64,000 bases of DNA from Candidatus Binatia bacterium (GTDB lineage: Bacteria; Desulfobacterota; Binatia; UBA9968; JAJDTQ01). The notes under the pieces are model-generated. The model did not search any database and was not told the origin of the DNA. It saw nothing but the letters and a program-made list of their open reading frames with translations. The stretch's first letter is position 1. Each line of letters starts with the position of its first letter. The position numbers and the translations under genes are program-made. Shown here one piece after another: positions 51,984 through 58,422 of the stretch. The stretch spans positions 1,280,001-1,344,000 of the forward strand of contig OY762897.2 in NCBI GenBank assembly GCA_963666515.2. The letters are read 5' to 3'.

Positions 51984-53970
51984 ACTGAAGTTCTGAGGCC
52001 AAGACAGCGTAAGTGGTTGAATTTAGGGGGAATAGGATTGAGACGGCAGTACGGGTTCTGACTACACGGGGAGTTTGAGGTGGAGGAGTTCCAAGGCGAG
52101 GCGTTGGAGGTCGGTGGGGAGGGTGAGTTGTTGGAAGGTCAGCTTTGAGCCTTGGAGTTGAAGGGTATTGCGGGTGAGGGTGGCCAAGTGGCGGAGCAGA
52201 CCGCGGAAGTGGTGCACGGGTTGCCCCTGTGGGGTTCGGCGGGTGGCGGCTTTGCGCTCGGAGCTGTGGGAGGGCACGCTGGGGCTGACGGGGGAGGGGC
52301 GGCGGCGAGCGGCGTCCTGGGGGTCGTCTTCGGCGAACAAGAGTGGAGCCCAGGCTCGCCGCATGTGCCACTCGACGTAGTAGGCGAGCATGCACAGGAA
52401 GACGTGGGCGCGCACGCGCTGGGACAGGCGGTGGTGGATCGGGCGCACGTGGAGGTCCACGGTCTTGAGGCATCGGAAGGCGCGCTCGACTGCGGCGAGG
52501 CGTTTATAGGCGCTGACGGTGGAAGCGGCATCGAGGAGGGGCTCAGGGACGGAGGTGCGGATGACGTAGAGGCCGTCGAGGCGGGCCTCTTGAGCGATGG
52601 CGTCGGATTTGCGCTGATAGCGGAACGAGGACTCGGTGACGGTCATGTCGAAGTGCTTGGCCATCTTGAAGCGGCCCAACACCCGGCCCACCCGCAGTGC
52701 GATGGCGCTCTCACCGCGAAGCGGTCGTTTGGGGCGTTGGGTGGCCCGGACGATCTTGTCCAGTTCCTGCTCGGTGGCGTCCAGCAGGGCTTGGCGTTTG
52801 CGCCGACGCTCCTGGCGCAGCAGGGGGTTGAGGCAGGCGATGAGGCGTTCGCCGGGGAAGTCTGGATGAGCGATTTCAGCCAGGTCGGTGTGGTCGAACA
52901 GGGACGACTGCAAGGGGCCTTGGTCTTGGGCGAGCTTGGCGACGGCATCGTTGCGTAGTGCACTGATCCAGTCCAGACCCTCCACCGGGCGCAGTTCCTC
53001 GTCGATGCGCGCACTGGTCAACATTCCCCGATCGCCGACGAACACCACACGTTCGAGCCCGAAGCGCTCGCGGACCTTGTGGATCTGGTCCGCCAAAGTG
53101 CTCGGGTCAGCGGTGTTGCCCTCGTAGACCTCCACCGCCACCGGACAGCCGTCGGCGTTGCACAGTAACCCGTAGACGATCTGCAGCTTGCCTTTCTTGC
53201 CGTCCCGCGAGTAGCCGATGCGCCCCAGCGGGCAGCGCCGCCCTTCGAGATAGCTCGAAGTCACGTCGTAGAGCACCAGCGTGCCGTGGTGGAGATGGCG
53301 CTTGGCCAGACTGCGTTCGATGCGCCCCTGACGCTCCCCTAGCCAGTCCATGGCCTCATACAACTCTTCGGCCTGCACCGCCTCAAGGCCGAGTTCCTCG
53401 CCCAGGGTGGACGTCGCACTCTCGGCATCCAACGCCCGCGCCGTGGCCAGCTTCGAGTCCGGACACAGCACCCGGGACACGATCAAGGCCACACTACGGT
53501 CGCGTTGGACGCTGTGCCGAGAGTCCAGCAGCCGCTCCAGCCCCAGCGTCTTGACCGTGCCCAGCACCGCAGCCACGTGTCCATGGGGACGAGAGCGCAA
53601 CACTTGCAATGCCTCCTCGGCCGGCACCAGGGTCTTGCCGCCGAGTGCGAGGCGCACCAGTTCCACCACCGAATCGGGCAGGTGGGAGAGGTTGCCGACG
53701 GTTTCGTTTTTGACCTTGCCGTTTTCGCGGTAGGAGCGCCTGAGCAGGTGGGTGGTGTAGACTCGGTCTTTGTATCGACGCGTGGTAGTAACGACGTGTA
53801 CGGCGGCCTTGCGTCTTGGCATACATGGGATTGTAGCACAATCACCGAATCAGTCAAGCCTATTTAGTGACTACATGTTACGCCTGAAATCTGCCCTTGA
53901 ATCTCCAAATGTCTATCCAATACAATGAGTTAGAGGCTGTCAGGCCGGAATCCGGCCCCAGAACTTCAGT
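51984..53970 (-). mobile_element. IS1634-family-like insertion sequence, copy B
   Basis: 17-bp IRs ACTGAAGTTCTGAGGCC / GGCCCCAGAACTTCAGT (1 mismatch); CTAA direct repeats at 51980-83 and 53971-74. Confidence 0.92.
52062..53822 (-). CDS. IS1634-family DDE transposase
   Basis: LLRRSYRENGKVKNETVGNLS, LYDVTSSY, GYSRDGK, VGDRGM, VERAFR. Confidence 0.92.
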   Translation of the reverse strand: MPRRKAAVHVVTTTRRYKDRVYTTHLLRRSYRENGKVKNETVGNLSHLPDSVVELVRLALGGKTLVPAEEALQVLRSRPHGHVAAVLGTVKTLGLERLLDSRHSVQRDRSVALIVSRVLCPDSKLATARALDAESATSTLGEELGLEAVQAEELYEAMDWLGERQGRIERSLAKRHLHHGTLVLYDVTSSYLEGRRCPLGRIGYSRDGKKGKLQIVYGLLCNADGCPVAVEVYEGNTADPSTLADQIHKVRERFGLERVVFVGDRGMLTSARIDEELRPVEGLDWISALRNDAVAKLAQDQGPLQSSLFDHTDLAEIAHPDFPGERLIACLNPLLRQERRRKRQALLDATEQELDKIVRATQRPKRPLRGESAIALRVGRVLGRFKMAKHFDMTVTESSFRYQRKSDAIAQEARLDGLYVIRTSVPEPLLDAASTVSAYKRLAAVERAFRCLKTVDLHVRPIHHRLSQRVRAHVFLCMLAYYVEWHMRRAWAPLLFAEDDPQDAARRRPSPVSPSVPSHSSERKAATRRTPQGQPVHHFRGLLRHLATLTRNTLQLQGSKLTFQQLTLPTDLQRLALELLHLKLPV

Positions 53971-54733: not shown

Positions 54734-56242
54734 TCAGCAGCTCTCCTTGATGAAATCCGCCACGCGCTCGCCGATCATCATGCAGGTCACGTTGGTGTTG
54801 GCGTGGGTGACCGTGGGCATGATGGAGGCGTCGGCCACCCGCAGGTTGTCGATGCCGTGAACCCGTAGCTGCTCGTCCACCACGGTCATGTTGTCGGACG
54901 CGGGACCCATGAGGCAGGTGCCGGCGGCATGGTGGTAGCTGTCCAGGGTCGAGCGCGCCCACCGGCCCCAGTCCTCACCGCGCCTGGGCTGGATCGGCGG
55001 GCCGTAGAACTCGGGCATGTCGCCGGTCTGGGTCAGCAGGTCCAGGAACTCCATGGTCGCCACCACGGCCGCGACGTCGCCGGGATGTTCCAGCATCCGC
55101 GCGTCCACCCCCGGCAGTTCGTGCGGGTCGGCGCTCTGGAGGAAGACCCGGCCGCGGTTCCGTTGCTCCAGCAGCGCCGCGGAGATGTTGAGGGTCCGGC
55201 CCACGCCCTCCAGCACCGTGGGCGGCCGCATGAAGACGTGGAAATCGCCGGTCTCCCGTGACGGGTCGCTCTTGGTGATCAGCCGGAAGGGCGGCACCAC
55301 CCAGTCCACCTCGAAGGCGCCGCGTCCCTCGAAAGCCATGTGCAGCATGGCGTGGTCCTGGTAGTTCTCGCCCACGCCGGGGCGGTCGTGCTGCACCTCG
55401 ATGCCGTGCCGCTGCAGCTCCGCGGCCGGCCCGATGCCGGAGAGCATCATGATGTGGGGGCTGTGGAACGCCCCCGCGGTCAGCACCACCTCGGCGCCGG
55501 CCGCGGTGTGCCGCTGCCCGTCCTTCTCGTAGTTCACCCCCGTCACGCGGTTGCCCGACAGGGAAAGCGAGACCACCGGCGCCTCGGCGATGACGGTGAG
55601 GTTGGGCCGGCCTCGGGCGGCCTCCAGGTACGCCACCGTGGTGGACTGCCGCATGCCGTCCTTGATGTTGTAGGGGGAGGTGCAGAGCCCCCAGGGATTG
55701 GGATCGTTGACGTCGCCTTGCGGCAGCCCGAGTTCCCGCGCCGCGTCCATGAAGACCTGCACCGCCTTGGGGACCTCCTGGCCGAAGAGGTAGTGGCGCT
55801 CGAAGTAGAGCGGCCCGCCGTGACCGTGGTCGGGGCTGTCGGGGTTATCCTGGTCGTTCTCGAGGCGTTTCAGCACCGGCAGGACGTGCTCCCACGACCA
55901 GGAAGGGTTCCCGGCCGCAGCCCACGCGTCCATGTCCGCCTTGATCGGGCGGATCACCGACATCACGTTTACCGAGGAGCCGCCGCCCATGATCTTTCCG
56001 GCCAGGGAATAGAAGGTGCTGCCGTCGACCCTGCGCTCGCTCGGGTACATGTTGATGTAGGGCGTCTCCAGGAGCAGCCGCACCCTCCCGGCCGCCTGCG
56101 CCACCAGTTCGGGGATGGGCAGCGGGTCGGGGCCGGCCTCCAGCAGCAGGACCTTTCGGTTCGGGTCCTCGGAAAGACGCGCCGCGGCCGCGCAGCCCGC
56201 GGAGCCGCCGCCCACCAGAATCACATCGTAGTCGTTTGCCAT
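54734..56242 (-). CDS. GMC oxidoreductase
   Basis: GGGSAG, LLEAG, GGGSSVN, GENYQDH, HAAGTC, LRVADASIMP..HANTN. Confidence 0.93.
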   Translation of the reverse strand: MANDYDVILVGGGSAGCAAAARLSEDPNRKVLLLEAGPDPLPIPELVAQAAGRVRLLLETPYINMYPSERRVDGSTFYSLAGKIMGGGSSVNVMSVIRPIKADMDAWAAAGNPSWSWEHVLPVLKRLENDQDNPDSPDHGHGGPLYFERHYLFGQEVPKAVQVFMDAARELGLPQGDVNDPNPWGLCTSPYNIKDGMRQSTTVAYLEAARGRPNLTVIAEAPVVSLSLSGNRVTGVNYEKDGQRHTAAGAEVVLTAGAFHSPHIMMLSGIGPAAELQRHGIEVQHDRPGVGENYQDHAMLHMAFEGRGAFEVDWVVPPFRLITKSDPSRETGDFHVFMRPPTVLEGVGRTLNISAALLEQRNRGRVFLQSADPHELPGVDARMLEHPGDVAAVVATMEFLDLLTQTGDMPEFYGPPIQPRRGEDWGRWARSTLDSYHHAAGTCLMGPASDNMTVVDEQLRVHGIDNLRVADASIMPTVTHANTNVTCMMIGERVADFIKESC

Positions 56243-56326
56243 GGCATCCTCTTTTCAGGTGTGAGTACCATCTCCGTATCAACTCTGCGTTTGGCGTTCA
56301 ACAATGGTCGCCAGAGCATTTTTTTC

Positions 56327-56356
56327 TTGACAACCAACTCGCCGCGGAACTAGACT
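56327..56356 (+). promoter_or_regulatory. sigma70-type promoter of candidate ncRNA
   Basis: TTGACA-18 nt-TAGACT, preceded by a T-tract. Confidence 0.7.
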
Positions 56357-56361
56357 CATCT

Positions 56362-56753
56362 CGGCTCGTTCGCGAACGGGCAAGAGCCCGAGACCCCACG
56401 CGCGTCGGTTCCCGGGCTCGGTCATCAAAGCCTCAGGAGGTGTCAGATGACGAAAACCAGCCCACCCGACTATAAGCGCCCGTGAAAGCGGGCGGACTGG
56501 TTCCCGGTGCTTGGCCGGACGCGGTTTCCCGGCTGACCGTCCCGACTCGGGTGTTGGATATAACACAGCGGCATAGCCGTCGGGCACGCCGCGACTCCAG
56601 GGGACAGGCAGCGGAGGAGGGCGTCAAGGGCCCATCCCGGAAGACCGCACAAGGCGGAGACCAAACGGGGAACCACGGAAACGCAGAAAACCTTACCGGC
56701 GTCGATGAACGCCAGGGGCGGGCTCTCCCACCGGAGGAGAGCCCGTTTTCTTT
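56362..56753 (+). ncRNA. Candidate large structured RNA of unknown class
   Basis: Own promoter and terminator, at least 8 hairpins, no credible long ORF. Confidence 0.55.
56719..56753 (+). terminator. Intrinsic terminator
   Basis: CGGGCTCTCC-7 nt loop-GGAGAGCCCG followed by TTTTCTTT. Confidence 0.85.
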
Positions 56754-56793
56754 ATGAGATACTGTCTTTGCAGGACCTGACGGGGGAAGAGCC

Positions 56794-57135
56794 ATGGCAA
56801 CGGAGCAAACGGAGATCACCGGCTATCACGCCCACGTCTATTACGATCCCGGCACTAGGGAGACGGCCGGACGCGTGCGGGAGGGGCTGGGCGCCCGTTT
56901 CGACGTTGTGCTGGGGCGCTGGCACGACGTGCCGGTAGGCCCGCATCCCAAGGCCATGTACCAGGTGGCCTTCACGCCCGGCGAGTTCGCCAACGTGGTT
57001 CCGTGGCTGATGGTCCATCGGGAAGGTCTGGACATCCTGGTCCACCCCAGCACCGGCGAGCACGTGGGCGACCACCGGGACCGCGCCCTGTGGCTGGGCA
57101 CGCCGCTGCCGCTGAGGCTGGGCAGGTTCGGCTGA
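56794..57135 (+). CDS. DOPA 4,5-dioxygenase family protein
   Basis: YHAHVYY, PVGPHP..MYQ, LVHP.TG...DH...ALWLG. Confidence 0.9.
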   Translation: MATEQTEITGYHAHVYYDPGTRETAGRVREGLGARFDVVLGRWHDVPVGPHPKAMYQVAFTPGEFANVVPWLMVHREGLDILVHPSTGEHVGDHRDRALWLGTPLPLRLGRFG

Positions 57136-57186: not shown

Positions 57187-57657
57187 TCAGATGACGTCTC
57201 CGCCGCCGTCCCGCACCCTGAGCTTCGCCTCGATGAATTCCTTGTGCGGCACGCCGATGAGGTTGGCGATCTTGCGGACCAGGTACTCCTCGTGCTCGTC
57301 CGCGTTCTCGTCCGCGTAGGCGACGGCCCACAGGTACTCCACCACCTTCCGCTTCTGTTCCTCGGAGAAGCCCGTCTTGATGAGCGATGTGAACTGGTAG
57401 TGGTCGATGGCGTCGTCGGCCTCGGCTTCGGCCAGCTCCACCAGGTCGTGGGTCTCTTCGGGGGTGAGATCGAACTTTTCCTGCAAGGCCGCCACCACCA
57501 CCGCGCGTTCGCCCTCTGTGACCTCCACGTCCGTACGCATCATCTCGATGAGCAATGCGCCGGTGGCCACCTGGAGGCGATGCCGGTCCGACAGCCGGAC
57601 GTCGCGGTGGCCCGGGTCGATGCGTCCGTCGAAAAACCGCTGGATGGCTCGGAGCAT
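57187..57657 (-). CDS. TerB family protein
   Basis: ATGALLIEM..D....E, LWAVAYAD...HEEYLVRKIANL. Confidence 0.85.
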   Translation of the reverse strand: MLRAIQRFFDGRIDPGHRDVRLSDRHRLQVATGALLIEMMRTDVEVTEGERAVVVAALQEKFDLTPEETHDLVELAEAEADDAIDHYQFTSLIKTGFSEEQKRKVVEYLWAVAYADENADEHEEYLVRKIANLIGVPHKEFIEAKLRVRDGGGDVI

Positions 57658-58241
57658 TACGCACCCGCACCGTTGAGGAAGCGCACCTGGTAGTCCTTCC
57701 ACTTGTCCGCGGGACGGGTGATGTCTCCGGCATAGGTGCCGAAGCGGCCGCGGCGGCGGTCCCTGAAGTAGAGTTTCAGGGTCTGGTCCACCACCGGGAA
57801 GGCGATCCGGTCCCAGGGAACGTCTTCCTCGCGACACAACCGCACATCGAGGCTCTCCTCGCCGGGTCCGAACTCGCGCTCCCGCAGGGCGCCGCGGAAG
57901 ATCACGTAGACTTGGTTGATCTGCGGCAGGTTGATGAGGGTGTAGAGCTCCGATATCTCCACGTCGGCCAAGGCCTCCTCGCGGGTTTCCCTGGCGGCGC
58001 CCTCGATGGTGGTCTCGTAGTCCTCCAGGAAACCCGCGGGCAGGGTCCAGAACCCGTAGCGCGGCTCGATGGCGCGGCGGCACAACAGGATCGTGTCCTC
58101 CCACTCGGGGATGCAGCCGACCACGATCTTGGGGTTGGTGTAGTGGATGGTGTTGCAGGAGCCGCACACGTGCCGGGGCAGGTTGTCGCCCTCCGGAATA
58201 CGAAGCTCCACGGGCGCGGCGCAGGCGCTGCAGTAATTCAT
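57657..58241 (-). CDS. NUDIX hydrolase with N-terminal Zn ribbon
   Basis: CSAC..CGSC, LPAGFLE..E...GAARETREE. Confidence 0.92.
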   Translation of the reverse strand: MNYCSACAAPVELRIPEGDNLPRHVCGSCNTIHYTNPKIVVGCIPEWEDTILLCRRAIEPRYGFWTLPAGFLEDYETTIEGAARETREEALADVEISELYTLINLPQINQVYVIFRGALREREFGPGEESLDVRLCREEDVPWDRIAFPVVDQTLKLYFRDRRRGRFGTYAGDITRPADKWKDYQVRFLNGAGA

Positions 58242-58422
58242 GAGGCAACCTTGGGCGCCGTTCCAGCGCCGGACGCAGCGTCACCACGTCCGCACGGCTT
58301 GCCGGCTGGCCATACCATAGGGTGGGTACTATAGGGTGATCGCCCCGGAGGGTCAATCCGAACGGGATCTCATGCTATACACGACCGAGACCCAGTGTGA
58401 CGCGCCACGCCAGGGAGGTATC

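What the first reader, a model, noticed from the sequence alone, without database searches (positions are those of the whole stretch)
56327..56753. ~390-nt highly structured stand-alone transcript of no recognisable class
Seen: a 550-bp gap in an otherwise gene-dense region contains a TTGACA-18-TAGACT promoter and a strong terminator. Between them lie near-continuous helices: GCTCGTT/AACGGGC; GAGCCCG/CGGGCTC; GTCATC/GATGAC; AACCAG/CTGGTT enclosing CGCCCG-TGAAAG-CGGGCG; CCGGT/GCCGG; a long-range GTTTCC/GGAAAC domain enclosing CCCGAC/GTCGGG (with GTGTT/AACAC and CGGC/GCCG), ACGCC/GGCGT and CCGC/GCGG; then GGCGT/ACGCC. It lacks the hallmark motifs of RNase P, tmRNA, SRP and group I/II introns. 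Inference: a novel large ncRNA or a very large cis-regulatory leader.
Basis: partly seen in the sequence, partly recalled or inferred. Interest (0 to 1): 0.8.

Follow-up and report, generated by a model that had tools for sequence, protein, structure and literature searches.

The report
Structured leader RNA with proline-rich mini-ORF
A roughly 390-base, heavily folded RNA carrying a tiny proline-rich coding frame sits in front of a conserved dioxygenase-like gene in one genus of uncultured Binatia bacteria; it matches no known RNA family and is probably a new gene-control element.

Summary
The feature is real. A conserved sigma-70 promoter (56327-56356) and an intrinsic terminator (56718-56753) bound a ~390-nt unit. 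It is 72-86% identical in 25 of 27 other genomes of the same genus and single-copy. It has no Rfam match. It was not found in 95 genomes of other genera of the order or in 150 sampled from the phylum.

It is not simply a stand-alone RNA of no class:
- It lies in the 5' leader of a PF08883 "DOPA_dioxygen" gene, which sits downstream in 20 of 20 loci.
- In one relative the element is cleanly deleted and the same promoter runs straight into that gene.
This opens a 12-codon frame, M-T-x-x-x-P-P-D-x-x-R-P-stop, kept in 26 of 26 copies with wobble-only changes at the conserved codons.

Covariation is modest, and no RNA-only antiterminator was found. My best reading is a new attenuator-type leader with an arrest-like mini-ORF and an unknown signal. 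The main rival is a stable small RNA.

The parts
56320..56356 (+). Promoter: T-run, -35 TTGACA (56327-56332), 18-nt spacer, -10 TAGACT (56351-56356). The start is inferred at about G56363/56364.
   Evidence: only promoter-like site in 2 kb, 0.1 expected. Hexamers are invariant or nearly so in alignment A1. BLAST conservation starts at about 56316-56321 in most relatives. Metatranscriptome contigs start at 56365 and 56373 while a DNA contig runs on upstream, which is only a weak hint.
56364..56381 (+). P1: 5'-terminal hairpin GCUCGUU-CGCG-AACGGGC. As DNA its core is a perfect 12-bp palindrome.
   Evidence: pairs kept in 18-19 of 19. It is retained in the deletion variant G012. The palindrome is unique in the genome at 0 mismatches.
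56384..56419 (+). P2: hairpin of variable length, outer stem GAGCCCG/CGGGCUC.
   Evidence: Folds as a hairpin in 24 of 26 copies despite lengths of 34 to 72 nt (L013 and L016 fold differently). Compensatory changes occur at pairs 2, 3 and 6.
56421..56451 (+). P3: hairpin GUCAUC/GAUGAC. It holds the Shine-Dalgarno AGGAGGUG (56435-56442) in its loop and the start codon in its 3' arm.
   Evidence: Both arms are invariant in A1, so there is no covariation. The non-coding 5' arm GGTCATC is invariant and exactly complementary to the start-codon region.
56447..56485 (+). Mini-ORF (uORF): ATG, 12 codons, MTKTSPPDYKRP, stop TGA 56483-56485.
   Evidence: 26 of 26 copies have GGAGGT plus ATG. Codons 2, 6 and 7 vary only at the third position. 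The consensus is M-T-x-x-x-P-P-[D/F]-x-x-[R/C]-P. Length is 12 aa in 20 copies, 13 in 4, 16 in 1 and 30 in 1. The stop is TGA, TAG or TAA. This ORF type is unique in the genome.
56477..56494 (+). P4: hairpin CGCCCGU-GAAA-GCGGGCG. It is made of codons 11-12 and the stop codon.
   Evidence: five pairs are invariant and the sixth is U-G, U-A or C-G.
56499..56674 (+). 3' domain. Stacked long-range stems A (56499-56507 / 56666-56674), B (56509-56516 / 56653-56660) and C (56521-56531 / 56638-56648) lead to a three-way junction with hairpin F (56616-56637) and stem D (56532-56543 / 56601-56612). Stem D carries a second three-way junction with E1 (56551-56566) and variable E2 (56568-56592).
   Evidence: 92.9% of cells paired, against 31-51% when partners are slid, but not above column shuffles. 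Two-sided changes in stems B and C. E2 and F change length yet most copies still fold as hairpins. Covariance model R1 finds exactly one copy in each of 25 of 27 genus genomes.
56675..56697 (+). A/C-rich linker, unpaired and poorly conserved.
56698..56713 (+). P10: hairpin GGCGU-CGAUGA-ACGCC.
   Evidence: G-C to A-U compensatory change in 2 of 19 copies; the other pairs are kept.
56718..56753 (+). Intrinsic terminator: 10-11 bp G+C-rich hairpin plus UUUUCUUU.
   Evidence: 9-11 of 11 pairs in 26 of 26 unconstrained folds. BLAST conservation ends at about 56755 in most relatives. It was not listed by the scan.
56794..57135 (+). Downstream gene: 113-aa DOPA_dioxygen family protein (PF08883), the presumed regulated gene.
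   Evidence: E 5.7e-33. Found downstream in 20 of 20 loci. An ortholog is in 119 of 123 genomes of the order. The closest solved structures are named only "putative dioxygenase".

Best explanation
This is the ~390-nt 5' leader transcript of the PF08883 (DOPA_dioxygen-family) gene. It is a new attenuator-type control RNA found only in one genus of uncultured Binatia.

Proposed mechanism:
1. A strong promoter starts the RNA at about 56363.
2. A 5'-terminal hairpin (P1) and a variable hairpin (P2) follow.
3. A hairpin (P3) displays a perfect Shine-Dalgarno site in its loop and holds the AUG in its stem.
4. Ribosomes translate a 12-codon frame with two slow spots: Pro-Pro-Asp, then Arg-Pro directly before the stop. 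The stop lies in hairpin P4, a few bases before the large domain.
5. The 176-nt domain with two three-way junctions follows, then a small hairpin and a strong intrinsic terminator about 40 nt before the gene's start codon.
6. By default most transcripts end at the terminator, giving a stable ~390-nt RNA. The gene is expressed only by read-through.
7. I propose that read-through, or the fate of the leader, is set by two sensors: ribosome dwell time on the proline-rich mini-ORF (EF-P, prolyl-tRNA or a tunnel ligand), and a ligand or protein bound by the junction domain.

Shown: conservation, boundaries, gene linkage, the ORF's coding-type conservation, the helices, and the terminator.
Inferred: translation and stalling, premature termination, and any signal or antitermination step.
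For: Conservation and distribution:
- 72-86% identity in 23 of 24 and then 26 of 27 genus genomes by BLAST. The full element is in 25 of 27, with one copy each by the covariance model.
- Identity begins at the promoter and ends at the U-tract.
- There is no conserved long ORF, and insertion lengths in P2, E2 and F are not multiples of three.

Linkage to the gene:
- The DOPA_dioxygen gene is downstream in 20 of 20 loci; the upstream GMC gene is present in only 17 of 20.
- Only about 40 nt separate the U-tract from the ATG, and the scan finds no promoter there.
- In G012 about 340 nt (P2 interior to U-tract) are deleted, and the same promoter plus P1 runs directly into the gene's ribosome-binding site.

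Mini-ORF:
- 26 of 26 copies have GGAGGT, a 6-nt spacer and ATG.
- Thr2, Pro6 and Pro7 change only at the wobble base. The stop is kept in frame although its identity changes between TGA, TAG and TAA.

Structure:
- 96 consensus pairs, 16 of them with two-sided changes.
- P2, stems B and C, E2, F and P10 show compensatory or length-tolerant changes.
- Many U-G pairs fit only the + strand.

Transcription (weak):
- A metatranscriptome contig of a 97%-identical relative begins at 56365 at depth 27.7. A contig on the gene, from another relative, has depth 2.9.

Background:
- Adjacent prolines stall ribosomes, and stalling uncouples translation from transcription and promotes premature termination (abstracts of PMC8129111 and PMC5021804).
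Against: - No switch was found. Masking the mini-ORF at initiation, at Pro-Pro-Asp or at the stop, or masking all 5' strands of stems A-C, leaves the terminator hairpin in the minimum-energy fold in essentially all 26 copies. The only loss is L003 in the Pro-Pro-Asp mask. The best conserved complement of the terminator's 5' arm is only a by-product of repeated CGGGC/GCCCG arms.
- The mini-ORF ends about 230 nt before the terminator, too far for classical ribosome-coupled attenuation.
- Covariation in the domain core is not above shuffled controls: 3 pairs with two-sided change against 2.9 expected, and 92.9% against 92.5% paired. The core is nearly invariant.
- Only 26 related sequences from one genus exist, and metagenome and genome pattern scans added no new diversity.
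- Two copies have longer ORFs of 16 and 30 codons that run into the domain.
- RNA evidence comes from assembled contigs only, which cannot show ends, strand or level reliably.
- The reverse strand folds with the same z-score.
- Two genus members lack the element, so it is dispensable: G012 by deletion, and G014, which has a different ~330-nt leader.
Confidence: 0.45

Rival explanations
1. It is a stand-alone, stable small RNA of about 390 nt that acts in trans or sequesters a protein, and happens to carry a translated mini-ORF. The downstream gene is expressed by incidental, unregulated read-through of the RNA's terminator.
For: It has its own strong promoter, a 5'-terminal hairpin and a strong terminator predicted in every copy and every masked fold. 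No antiterminator was found. The leader contig in a metatranscriptome is about ten times deeper than the gene contig, though the two come from different relatives. The junction core is invariant, as expected for a binding surface.
Against: It is always placed directly in front of the same gene, which has no visible promoter of its own. The G012 deletion keeps the promoter for the gene and discards the RNA. No second copy or target-like complement was sought or found. Its loss in 2 of 27 relatives argues against an essential trans role.
Confidence: 0.3
2. The 12-residue peptide is itself the product, either a micropeptide or a precursor modified by the neighbouring dioxygenase-like enzyme. On this reading the RNA structure only stabilises or processes the message.
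For: Coding-type conservation of T2, P6, P7, D8, R11 and P12 with a perfect ribosome-binding site. Constant co-location with an enzyme gene of unknown function.
Against: Five of 12 positions vary freely. Twelve residues would not leave the ribosomal tunnel before release, and the conserved residues are the C-terminal ones typical of arrest peptides (my inference). This reading does not explain a 176-nt domain with an invariant junction core. Two relatives keep the enzyme gene without the ORF.
Confidence: 0.08
3. It is neutral: a young, slowly diverging intergenic stretch or a relic of an inserted element, with no function of its own.
For: It is restricted to one genus. It is dispensable in G012 and G014. 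Covariation is not above controls.
Against: Identity drops sharply outside the promoter and terminator boundaries, while inside them it is like that of the flanking genes. There are wobble-only changes in the ORF. Hairpins change length and sequence yet keep pairing. The element is single-copy at one syntenic site, so it is not a repeat.
Confidence: 0.05
4. It is a divergent member of a known RNA class that Rfam models miss, for example 6S RNA or a known riboswitch class.
For: The 6S model RF00013 finds nothing anywhere in this genome, so a housekeeping RNA is unaccounted for.
Against: There are no hits even at E up to 10 in the region, or at E up to 1 in 10 homologous loci. The architecture is two three-way junctions plus an ORF, not the rod with a central bubble of 6S (6S shape recalled). 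RNase P and tmRNA are found elsewhere in the genome.
Confidence: 0.03

Closest known systems
Salmonella mgtA leader with the proline-rich mini-ORF mgtL, and the related mgtCBR and corA leaders (recalled; only related papers were seen in the listing, e.g. PMC5299641 and PMC8092293, abstract starts)
   Same: A long structured 5' leader of several hundred nucleotides. It combines a short proline-codon-rich ORF with a folded RNA part, and premature transcription termination is the default.
   Different: There is no sequence or Rfam similarity. In the known leaders termination depends on Rho and the ORF lies inside the alternative stem-loops. Here there is an intrinsic terminator about 230 nt past the ORF, and no alternative pairing was found. 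The regulated gene is not a transporter.
tnaC leader peptide of the E. coli tryptophanase operon (recalled)
   Same: A short leader peptide ending Arg-Pro-stop, with UGA in 20 of 26 copies here. In tnaC this context lets the ribosome stall at termination and control downstream transcription.
   Different: TnaC has 24 residues with essential Trp12 and Asp16, which are absent here. tnaC acts by blocking a Rho loading site next to its stop. Here the stop is followed by a tightly folded domain, and TAG or TAA stops occur in 5 copies.
Classical amino-acid attenuators (his, trp, phe leaders; pheL paper PMC3082878 seen as listing and abstract start)
   Same: A short ORF enriched in one amino acid's codons (3 Pro in 12), followed by an intrinsic terminator before the regulated gene.
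   Different: Those have overlapping 1:2 / 2:3 / 3:4 hairpins directly linking the ORF to the terminator. Here a 176-nt autonomous domain intervenes, and masking the ORF does not affect the terminator. The gene is not a proline biosynthesis gene.
Transcriptional riboswitches with large multi-junction aptamers (cobalamin, lysine, M-box; recalled)
   Same: A 160-190-nt domain closed by a long helix, with conserved junction nucleotides and peripheral hairpins of variable length. It lies upstream of an intrinsic terminator in a 5' leader.
   Different: There is no match to any Rfam riboswitch model. No expression-platform overlap between the closing helix and the terminator was found. The ligand is unknown and distribution is limited to one genus.
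Dual-function small RNAs such as SgrS/SgrT or RNAIII/hld (recalled)
   Same: A structured RNA with its own promoter and terminator that also carries a small translated ORF.
   Different: Those ORFs encode peptides of 26 or more residues with their own function, and the RNAs act by base-pairing in trans. Here the ORF has 12 codons and looks like an arrest peptide, and the RNA is fixed in front of one gene.

Membership tests
Any Rfam 15 family (RNase P, tmRNA, SRP, 6S, all riboswitch and ribozyme classes) | Covariance-model score at or above the family's gathering threshold | tested here: not met
   0 matches in the 64-kb window. Only 4 chance-level hits (E 3-6.8, 12-14 bits, all on the minus strand) in 56200-56850. 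0 hits at E up to 1 in 10 homologous loci.
RNase P RNA / tmRNA | It is the genome's copy of that housekeeping RNA | tested here: not met
   RNase P is at C1:2976435-2976813 (292.8 bits). tmRNA is at C1:2952251-2952600 (209.3 bits). ARAGORN finds nothing in the window.
Classical leader-peptide attenuator | Short translated ORF enriched in the regulatory codon | tested here: met
   A 12-codon ORF with 3 Pro codons and a perfect Shine-Dalgarno site, with coding-type conservation in 26 of 26 copies. Translation itself was not shown.
Classical leader-peptide attenuator | Mutually exclusive terminator and antiterminator hairpins whose choice depends on ribosome position | tested here: not met
   The terminator is kept in constrained folds with the ribosome footprint masked at three positions, in 26 of 26, 25 of 26 and 26 of 26 copies. 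It is also kept when the 5' strands of stems A-C are masked, 26 of 26. This is thermodynamic prediction only.
Riboswitch (transcriptional) | Conserved, covarying aptamer fold | tested here: inconclusive
   92.9% of cells are paired and several two-sided changes occur in stems B and C and in the peripheral hairpins. This is not above shuffled controls, because the core is invariant and all sequences come from one genus.
Riboswitch (transcriptional) | Specific ligand binding that alters the expression platform | not testable with these tools
   This needs in-line probing or transcription assays. The regulated gene's function is unknown, so no candidate ligand can be named.
TnaC-type or other arrest peptides | Ribosome stalling at a defined codon, dependent on the conserved C-terminal residues | not testable with these tools
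   Only the sequence pattern is seen: P-P-D, two residues, R-P, stop. The TnaC hallmark Trp12/Asp16 spacing (recalled) is absent.
Rho-dependent proline-sensing leaders (mgtL type) | Rho-dependent termination controlled by translation of the mini-ORF | not tested
   An intrinsic terminator is present instead. A role for Rho was not examined.
Stand-alone small RNA gene | Own promoter and terminator, independent of neighbouring genes | tested here: inconclusive
   A promoter and a terminator are present. However, the unit is fixed upstream of one gene, 20 of 20 loci, and that gene shares the promoter in the deletion variant.

The most novel reading that the evidence does not exclude
The 176-nt domain with two three-way junctions is the aptamer of a new riboswitch class, or the binding site of a dedicated RNA-binding regulator. 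It works together with a new ligand- or EF-P-sensitive arrest peptide (P-P-D-x-x-R-P-stop) in one leader. This would be a two-input attenuator, and its signal would reveal the physiological role of the widespread but uncharacterised PF08883 "putative dioxygenase" family.
Probability: 0.3. Interest if true: 0.75.

Novelty: new variant of a known kind. Interest (0 to 1): 0.55.

Why it matters
Long bacterial leaders that combine a stalling mini-ORF with a large folded RNA are few, and they are known mainly from enterobacterial Mg2+ and tryptophan systems. This one comes from an uncultured phylum with no ncRNA report among the 15 titles listed (of 83 Binatota/Binatia papers found) in my literature search (listing only).

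It has clean boundaries, a natural deletion control (G012) and a small, tractable architecture. Promoter, mini-ORF, domain and terminator fit in 430 bp, so it can be tested directly in vitro or in a heterologous host.

It controls, or at least precedes, a near-universal gene of the order (119 of 123 genomes). The solved structures of that gene's relatives carry only the name "putative dioxygenase", so finding the signal could give that family a function.

The limits are real. It is confined to one genus, covariation is modest and no mechanism is demonstrated.

Tried and rejected
- **Known families.** Rfam at gathering and permissive thresholds, ARAGORN, and RNase P, tmRNA and 6S in the whole genome. 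None explains the element.
- **Protein-coding reading of the whole region.** Open frames differ in place and length between copies, and the indels are not multiples of three. Rejected.
- **Wider homologues.**
  - BLAST found nothing outside the genus among the 16 order relatives of other families; the family holds only this genus.
  - Model R1 found it in 0 of 95 genomes of other genera of the order and 0 of 150 phylum-sampled genomes. Both runs used Infernal's stricter filters.
  - The motif scan of genome contigs gave 22 records, all Binatia-lineage MAGs and essentially the same sequences as before. The scan of metagenome contigs gave 3 near-duplicates. No new diversity was gained.
- **Upstream regions of 10 orthologous genes outside the genus.** They are unrelated and mostly short, with no similar ORF seen by eye.
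- **Antiterminator search.** Ribosome-mask folds, a mask of stem A-C 5' strands and a duplex scan against the terminator's 5' arm. No conserved alternative pairing was found.
  - Pairing of mini-ORF codons 6-8 with the junction sequence UCGGGUG looked attractive in the window. It is broken without compensation in three clades (my reading). Rejected.
  - Stop-codon read-through, selenocysteine or frameshifting: the frame behind the stop is not kept, and TAG and TAA stops occur. Rejected.
- **P1 as a DNA operator of a regulon.** The exact palindrome is unique, and one-mismatch copies (35) are near the control (26). No support.
- **Paralogous mini-ORFs in the genome.** None.
- **RNA-seq.** Only assembled contigs were available. 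The parts of the leader without contig cover in X1 and X2, and the depth ratio, prove nothing.
- **Papers.** Listings and abstract starts; passages of PMC8129111; abstract and outline of PMC5021804. The strength of Pro-Pro-Asp as a stall motif, and the details of mgtL, tnaC, SgrS and 6S, are recalled and not taken from a call. No supplements were opened.
- **Unpublished genomes.** G098, G059 and G079 are among the genomes counted (0 of 95 and 119 of 123). No other claim rests on them.
Full report
**What is there**

The 551-bp gap lies between a divergently transcribed GMC-oxidoreductase gene (54734-56242, minus strand) and a 113-codon DOPA_dioxygen-family gene (56794-57135, plus strand; PF08883, E 5.7e-33). 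It contains the only sigma-70-like site in 2 kb, TTGACA-18-TAGACT at 56327-56356, with 0.1 expected by chance. It also contains a G+C-rich hairpin followed by UUUUCUUU at 56718-56753. The simple terminator scan did not list that hairpin, but it is in the minimum-energy fold of all 26 copies studied.

The 394-nt stretch folds better than shuffles (z = -3.2). The reverse strand does so as well (z = -3.2), so fold energy alone does not give the strand.

**Is it a known RNA?**

No.
- Rfam 15 gives nothing at gathering thresholds in the whole window.
- At E up to 10 in 56200-56850 there are only four chance-level, minus-strand hits.
- At E up to 1 in ten homologous loci there is nothing.
- ARAGORN finds nothing in the window.
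- The genome's RNase P RNA and tmRNA are elsewhere. The 6S model finds nothing anywhere in the genome.

**Conservation**

- BLAST of 56300-56790 against relatives finds the stretch in 23 of 24 genomes of the same genus at 72-86% identity, and in 0 of 16 genomes of two other families of the order.
- The family consists of this one genus. 26 of 27 other genomes match, but one of these (G012) matches only over the first 84 bases.
- In most relatives identity begins at 56316-56321, just before the -35 hexamer, and ends at about 56755, the end of the U-tract.
- A covariance model of the 3' domain (R1: 162 positions, 45 pairs) finds exactly one copy in 25 of 27 genus genomes. It finds none in 95 genomes of 26 other genera of the order and none in 150 genomes sampled across the phylum. 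Both searches used Infernal's stricter filters.
- A motif scan of one genome per species of all prokaryotes returned 22 records, all metagenome-assembled genomes titled Candidatus Binatia or older names for that lineage. A metagenome scan returned 3. None added sequence diversity.

The element is therefore real, single-copy and vertically inherited, and as far as searched it is confined to one genus of uncultured Binatia.

**It belongs to the transcription unit of the downstream gene**

- The DOPA_dioxygen gene follows the element in 20 of 20 loci. The upstream GMC gene is present in 17 of 20.
- Only about 40 nt separate the U-tract from the start codon, and no promoter-like site is found there.
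- In G012 the same promoter and the first hairpin are present, but about 340 nt are missing, from inside the second hairpin to just past the U-tract. The promoter then runs directly into the conserved ribosome-binding region of the gene. This shows the promoter serves that gene and the element is an insert in its leader.
- G014, a 2.7-Mb genus member, has the gene behind a different ~330-nt leader.
- Orthologs of the gene occur in 119 of 123 genomes of the order (three of those genomes are flagged as unpublished). The ten upstream regions I read outside the genus are unrelated.

At 56435-56442 lies AGGAGGUG. Six bases later comes AUG (56447), opening MTKTSPPDYKRP followed by UGA (56483-56485).
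- All 26 copies keep GGAGGT, the spacing and the ATG.
- Codons 2 (ACG/ACA/ACT), 6 (CCA/CCG) and 7 (CCC/CCG) vary only at the third base.
- Codons 3-5 and 9-10 vary freely.
- Asp8 is Phe in two copies, and Arg11 is Cys in one.
- The consensus is M-T-x-x-x-P-P-[D/F]-x-x-[R/C]-P.
- 20 copies stop after codon 12 and 4 after codon 13. One runs to 16 codons and one to 30. The stop codon is TGA, TAG or TAA.

This is the signature of a translated frame. No other ORF of this type exists in the genome.

The conserved residues are the C-terminal ones, a 12-residue chain never leaves the ribosomal tunnel, and both Pro-Pro-X and Pro-stop are slow steps for the ribosome. The general point comes from the abstract of PMC8129111; the specific strength of Pro-Pro-Asp and of Arg-Pro-stop is recalled. 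I therefore read it as an arrest-type leader peptide rather than a functional peptide.

**The fold**

Consensus folding of 19 copies gives 96 pairs, 16 of them with a two-sided change in at least one copy. From 5' to 3' the RNA has these parts:
- **P1** (56364-56381) is a 5'-terminal hairpin.
- **P2** (56384-56419) is a hairpin whose length ranges from 34 to 72 nt. It folds as a hairpin in 24 of 26 copies, and its outer pairs show A-U/G-C, G-C/A-U and C-G/U-A exchanges.
- **P3** (56421-56451) has arms GUCAUC/GAUGAC, with the Shine-Dalgarno site in the loop and the AUG in the stem. Both arms are invariant. The conservation of the non-coding 5' arm is best explained by pairing with the start-codon region.
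- **P4** (56477-56494) is CGCCCGU-GAAA-GCGGGCG, built from codons 11-12 and the stop.
- **The 3' domain** (56499-56674) spans 176 nt.
- **A poorly conserved A/C-rich linker** follows (56675-56697).
- **P10** (56698-56713) has a G-C to A-U compensatory change in two copies.
- **The terminator** closes the unit.

- Stem A: GGUUCCCGG / CGGGGAACC.
- Stem B: GCUUGGCC / GGCGGAGA, which is a perfect GCUUCGCC / GGCGAAGC in one clade and GGUUUGCCG / CGGCAACCC in another.
- Stem C: GCGGUUUCCCG / CGGAAGACCGC.

These lead to a three-way junction with a variable hairpin F and a stem D. Stem D carries a second junction with the invariant hairpin E1 (GUGUU-GGAU-AACAC) and the variable hairpin E2.

On 26 copies, 92.9% of cells in this structure form standard pairs, against 31-51% when partners are slid by 1-3 columns. 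Column shuffles give 92.5%, and only 3 pairs show two-sided change. The core is simply too conserved, and the sample too narrow, for statistical proof. The support comes from the peripheral helices and from stems B and C.

Many U-G pairs would be A-C on the other strand, which fits the plus strand.

**Transcription**

Only assembled contigs of public runs were available.
- In one metatranscriptome, a 185-nt contig 97% identical to the window covers 56365-56549 at depth 27.7 and begins 9 nt after the -10 hexamer.
- In a second run, guessed to be RNA, a contig begins at 56373.
- A DNA-run contig continues upstream.
- A contig on the gene in the first run has depth 2.9 but comes from a more distant relative.

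This is a weak hint for the predicted start and for more leader than gene RNA, and no more than that.

**Mechanism**

I looked for the usual logic of attenuators, an alternative pairing that removes the terminator. Four constrained folds each left the terminator intact in all or nearly all of the 26 copies: the ribosome footprint masked at initiation, at Pro-Pro-Asp and at the stop codon, and all 5' strands of stems A-C masked. A scan for conserved complements of the terminator's 5' arm found only the repeated CGGGC/GCCCG arms of other hairpins. The modules therefore look autonomous in RNA-only thermodynamic models.

What the anatomy does say:
- The default outcome is termination about 40 nt before the gene.
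- The mini-ORF is gated by P3 and built to hold ribosomes.
- Its stop sits within about 15 nt of the closing helix of the domain.
- The domain has the size, junction conservation and variable periphery of a ligand- or protein-binding RNA.

I therefore commit to a cis-acting attenuator leader with two sensors and a still unknown antitermination step (0.45). The main rival is a stable small RNA whose terminator is merely leaky (0.30). Polyproline stalling is known to uncouple transcription from translation and promote premature termination (abstract of PMC5021804). That is the closest documented logic, but the 230-nt distance to the terminator here means it cannot apply in its simple form.

**Comparison with known systems**

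It works most like the enterobacterial leaders that join a proline-rich mini-ORF to a folded leader (mgtA/mgtL), like tnaC (Arg-Pro-stop), and like transcriptional riboswitches with large multi-junction aptamers. These comparisons are recalled. It is a member of none:
- There is no model match.
- It lacks the overlapping hairpins of classical attenuators (tested, not met).
- It lacks the TnaC hallmark residues.
- Ligand binding and stalling cannot be tested with these tools.

A full-text search for Binatota or Binatia (83 papers, listing of 15 seen) showed no report on RNAs of this lineage among the listed titles.

**Verdict**

This is a genuine, conserved, previously undescribed structured leader RNA with an arrest-like mini-ORF. 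Novelty is at the level of a new variant of a known kind. Interest is moderate, limited by the narrow distribution, the modest covariation and the lack of a demonstrated switch.

Noticed in passing
L047 / L108 (G012), upstream of its DOPA_dioxygen gene: A natural deletion variant. The same promoter and P1 hairpin are present, then about 340 nt are missing (from inside P2 to just past the terminator U-tract), and the promoter runs straight into the gene's ribosome-binding site. It is a ready-made control for experiments.
   Followed up: yes
L123 (G014), about 330 nt between the GMC gene and the DOPA_dioxygen gene: The smallest genome of the genus (2.7 Mb) has a different, A+T-richer leader with a similar promoter layout and a GGGTGTTGG...AACCAC stretch reminiscent of hairpin E1. 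It has no mini-ORF and gives no match to model R1. This could be a decayed version or the ancestral state.
   Followed up: partly
L043 and L138; L046 and L051: Two lineages have lost the usual stop of the mini-ORF. One frame runs 30 codons through the 5' strands of stems A-C to the invariant GGCUGA, and the other runs 16 codons to a UGA at the foot of stem A. Each was seen in two independent records, so a sequencing error is unlikely.
   Followed up: partly
window 56367-56378: The core of hairpin P1, CGTTCGCGAACG, is a perfect 12-bp DNA palindrome a few bases after the start site. It is unique in the genome at 0 mismatches; with one mismatch there are 35 copies against 26 for the control. It could be a repressor operator as well as an RNA hairpin.
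   Followed up: partly
whole genome G000: The Rfam 6S RNA model (RF00013) finds no match anywhere in this 98%-complete genome, so its 6S RNA, if it has one, is too divergent for the model.
   Followed up: no
window 52062-53822 (minus strand): A 586-aa ORF with a DDE transposase domain (PF01609, E 7.8e-15) lies about 900 bp beyond the far end of the GMC-oxidoreductase gene. This is an insertion sequence close to the locus.
   Followed up: no
window 57187-58356 (minus strand): The 389-aa ORF downstream of the dioxygenase-like gene carries a TerB domain only at residues 263-378. Its long arginine/proline-rich N-terminal part may be an over-extended start, although relatives align from residue 58 onward.
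   Followed up: no
window 56365-56549 in run X1: A metatranscriptome from another study holds a 185-nt contig 97% identical to the 5' half of the leader, at depth 27.7. Relatives of this organism and this RNA therefore occur in at least one RNA data set.
   Followed up: partly
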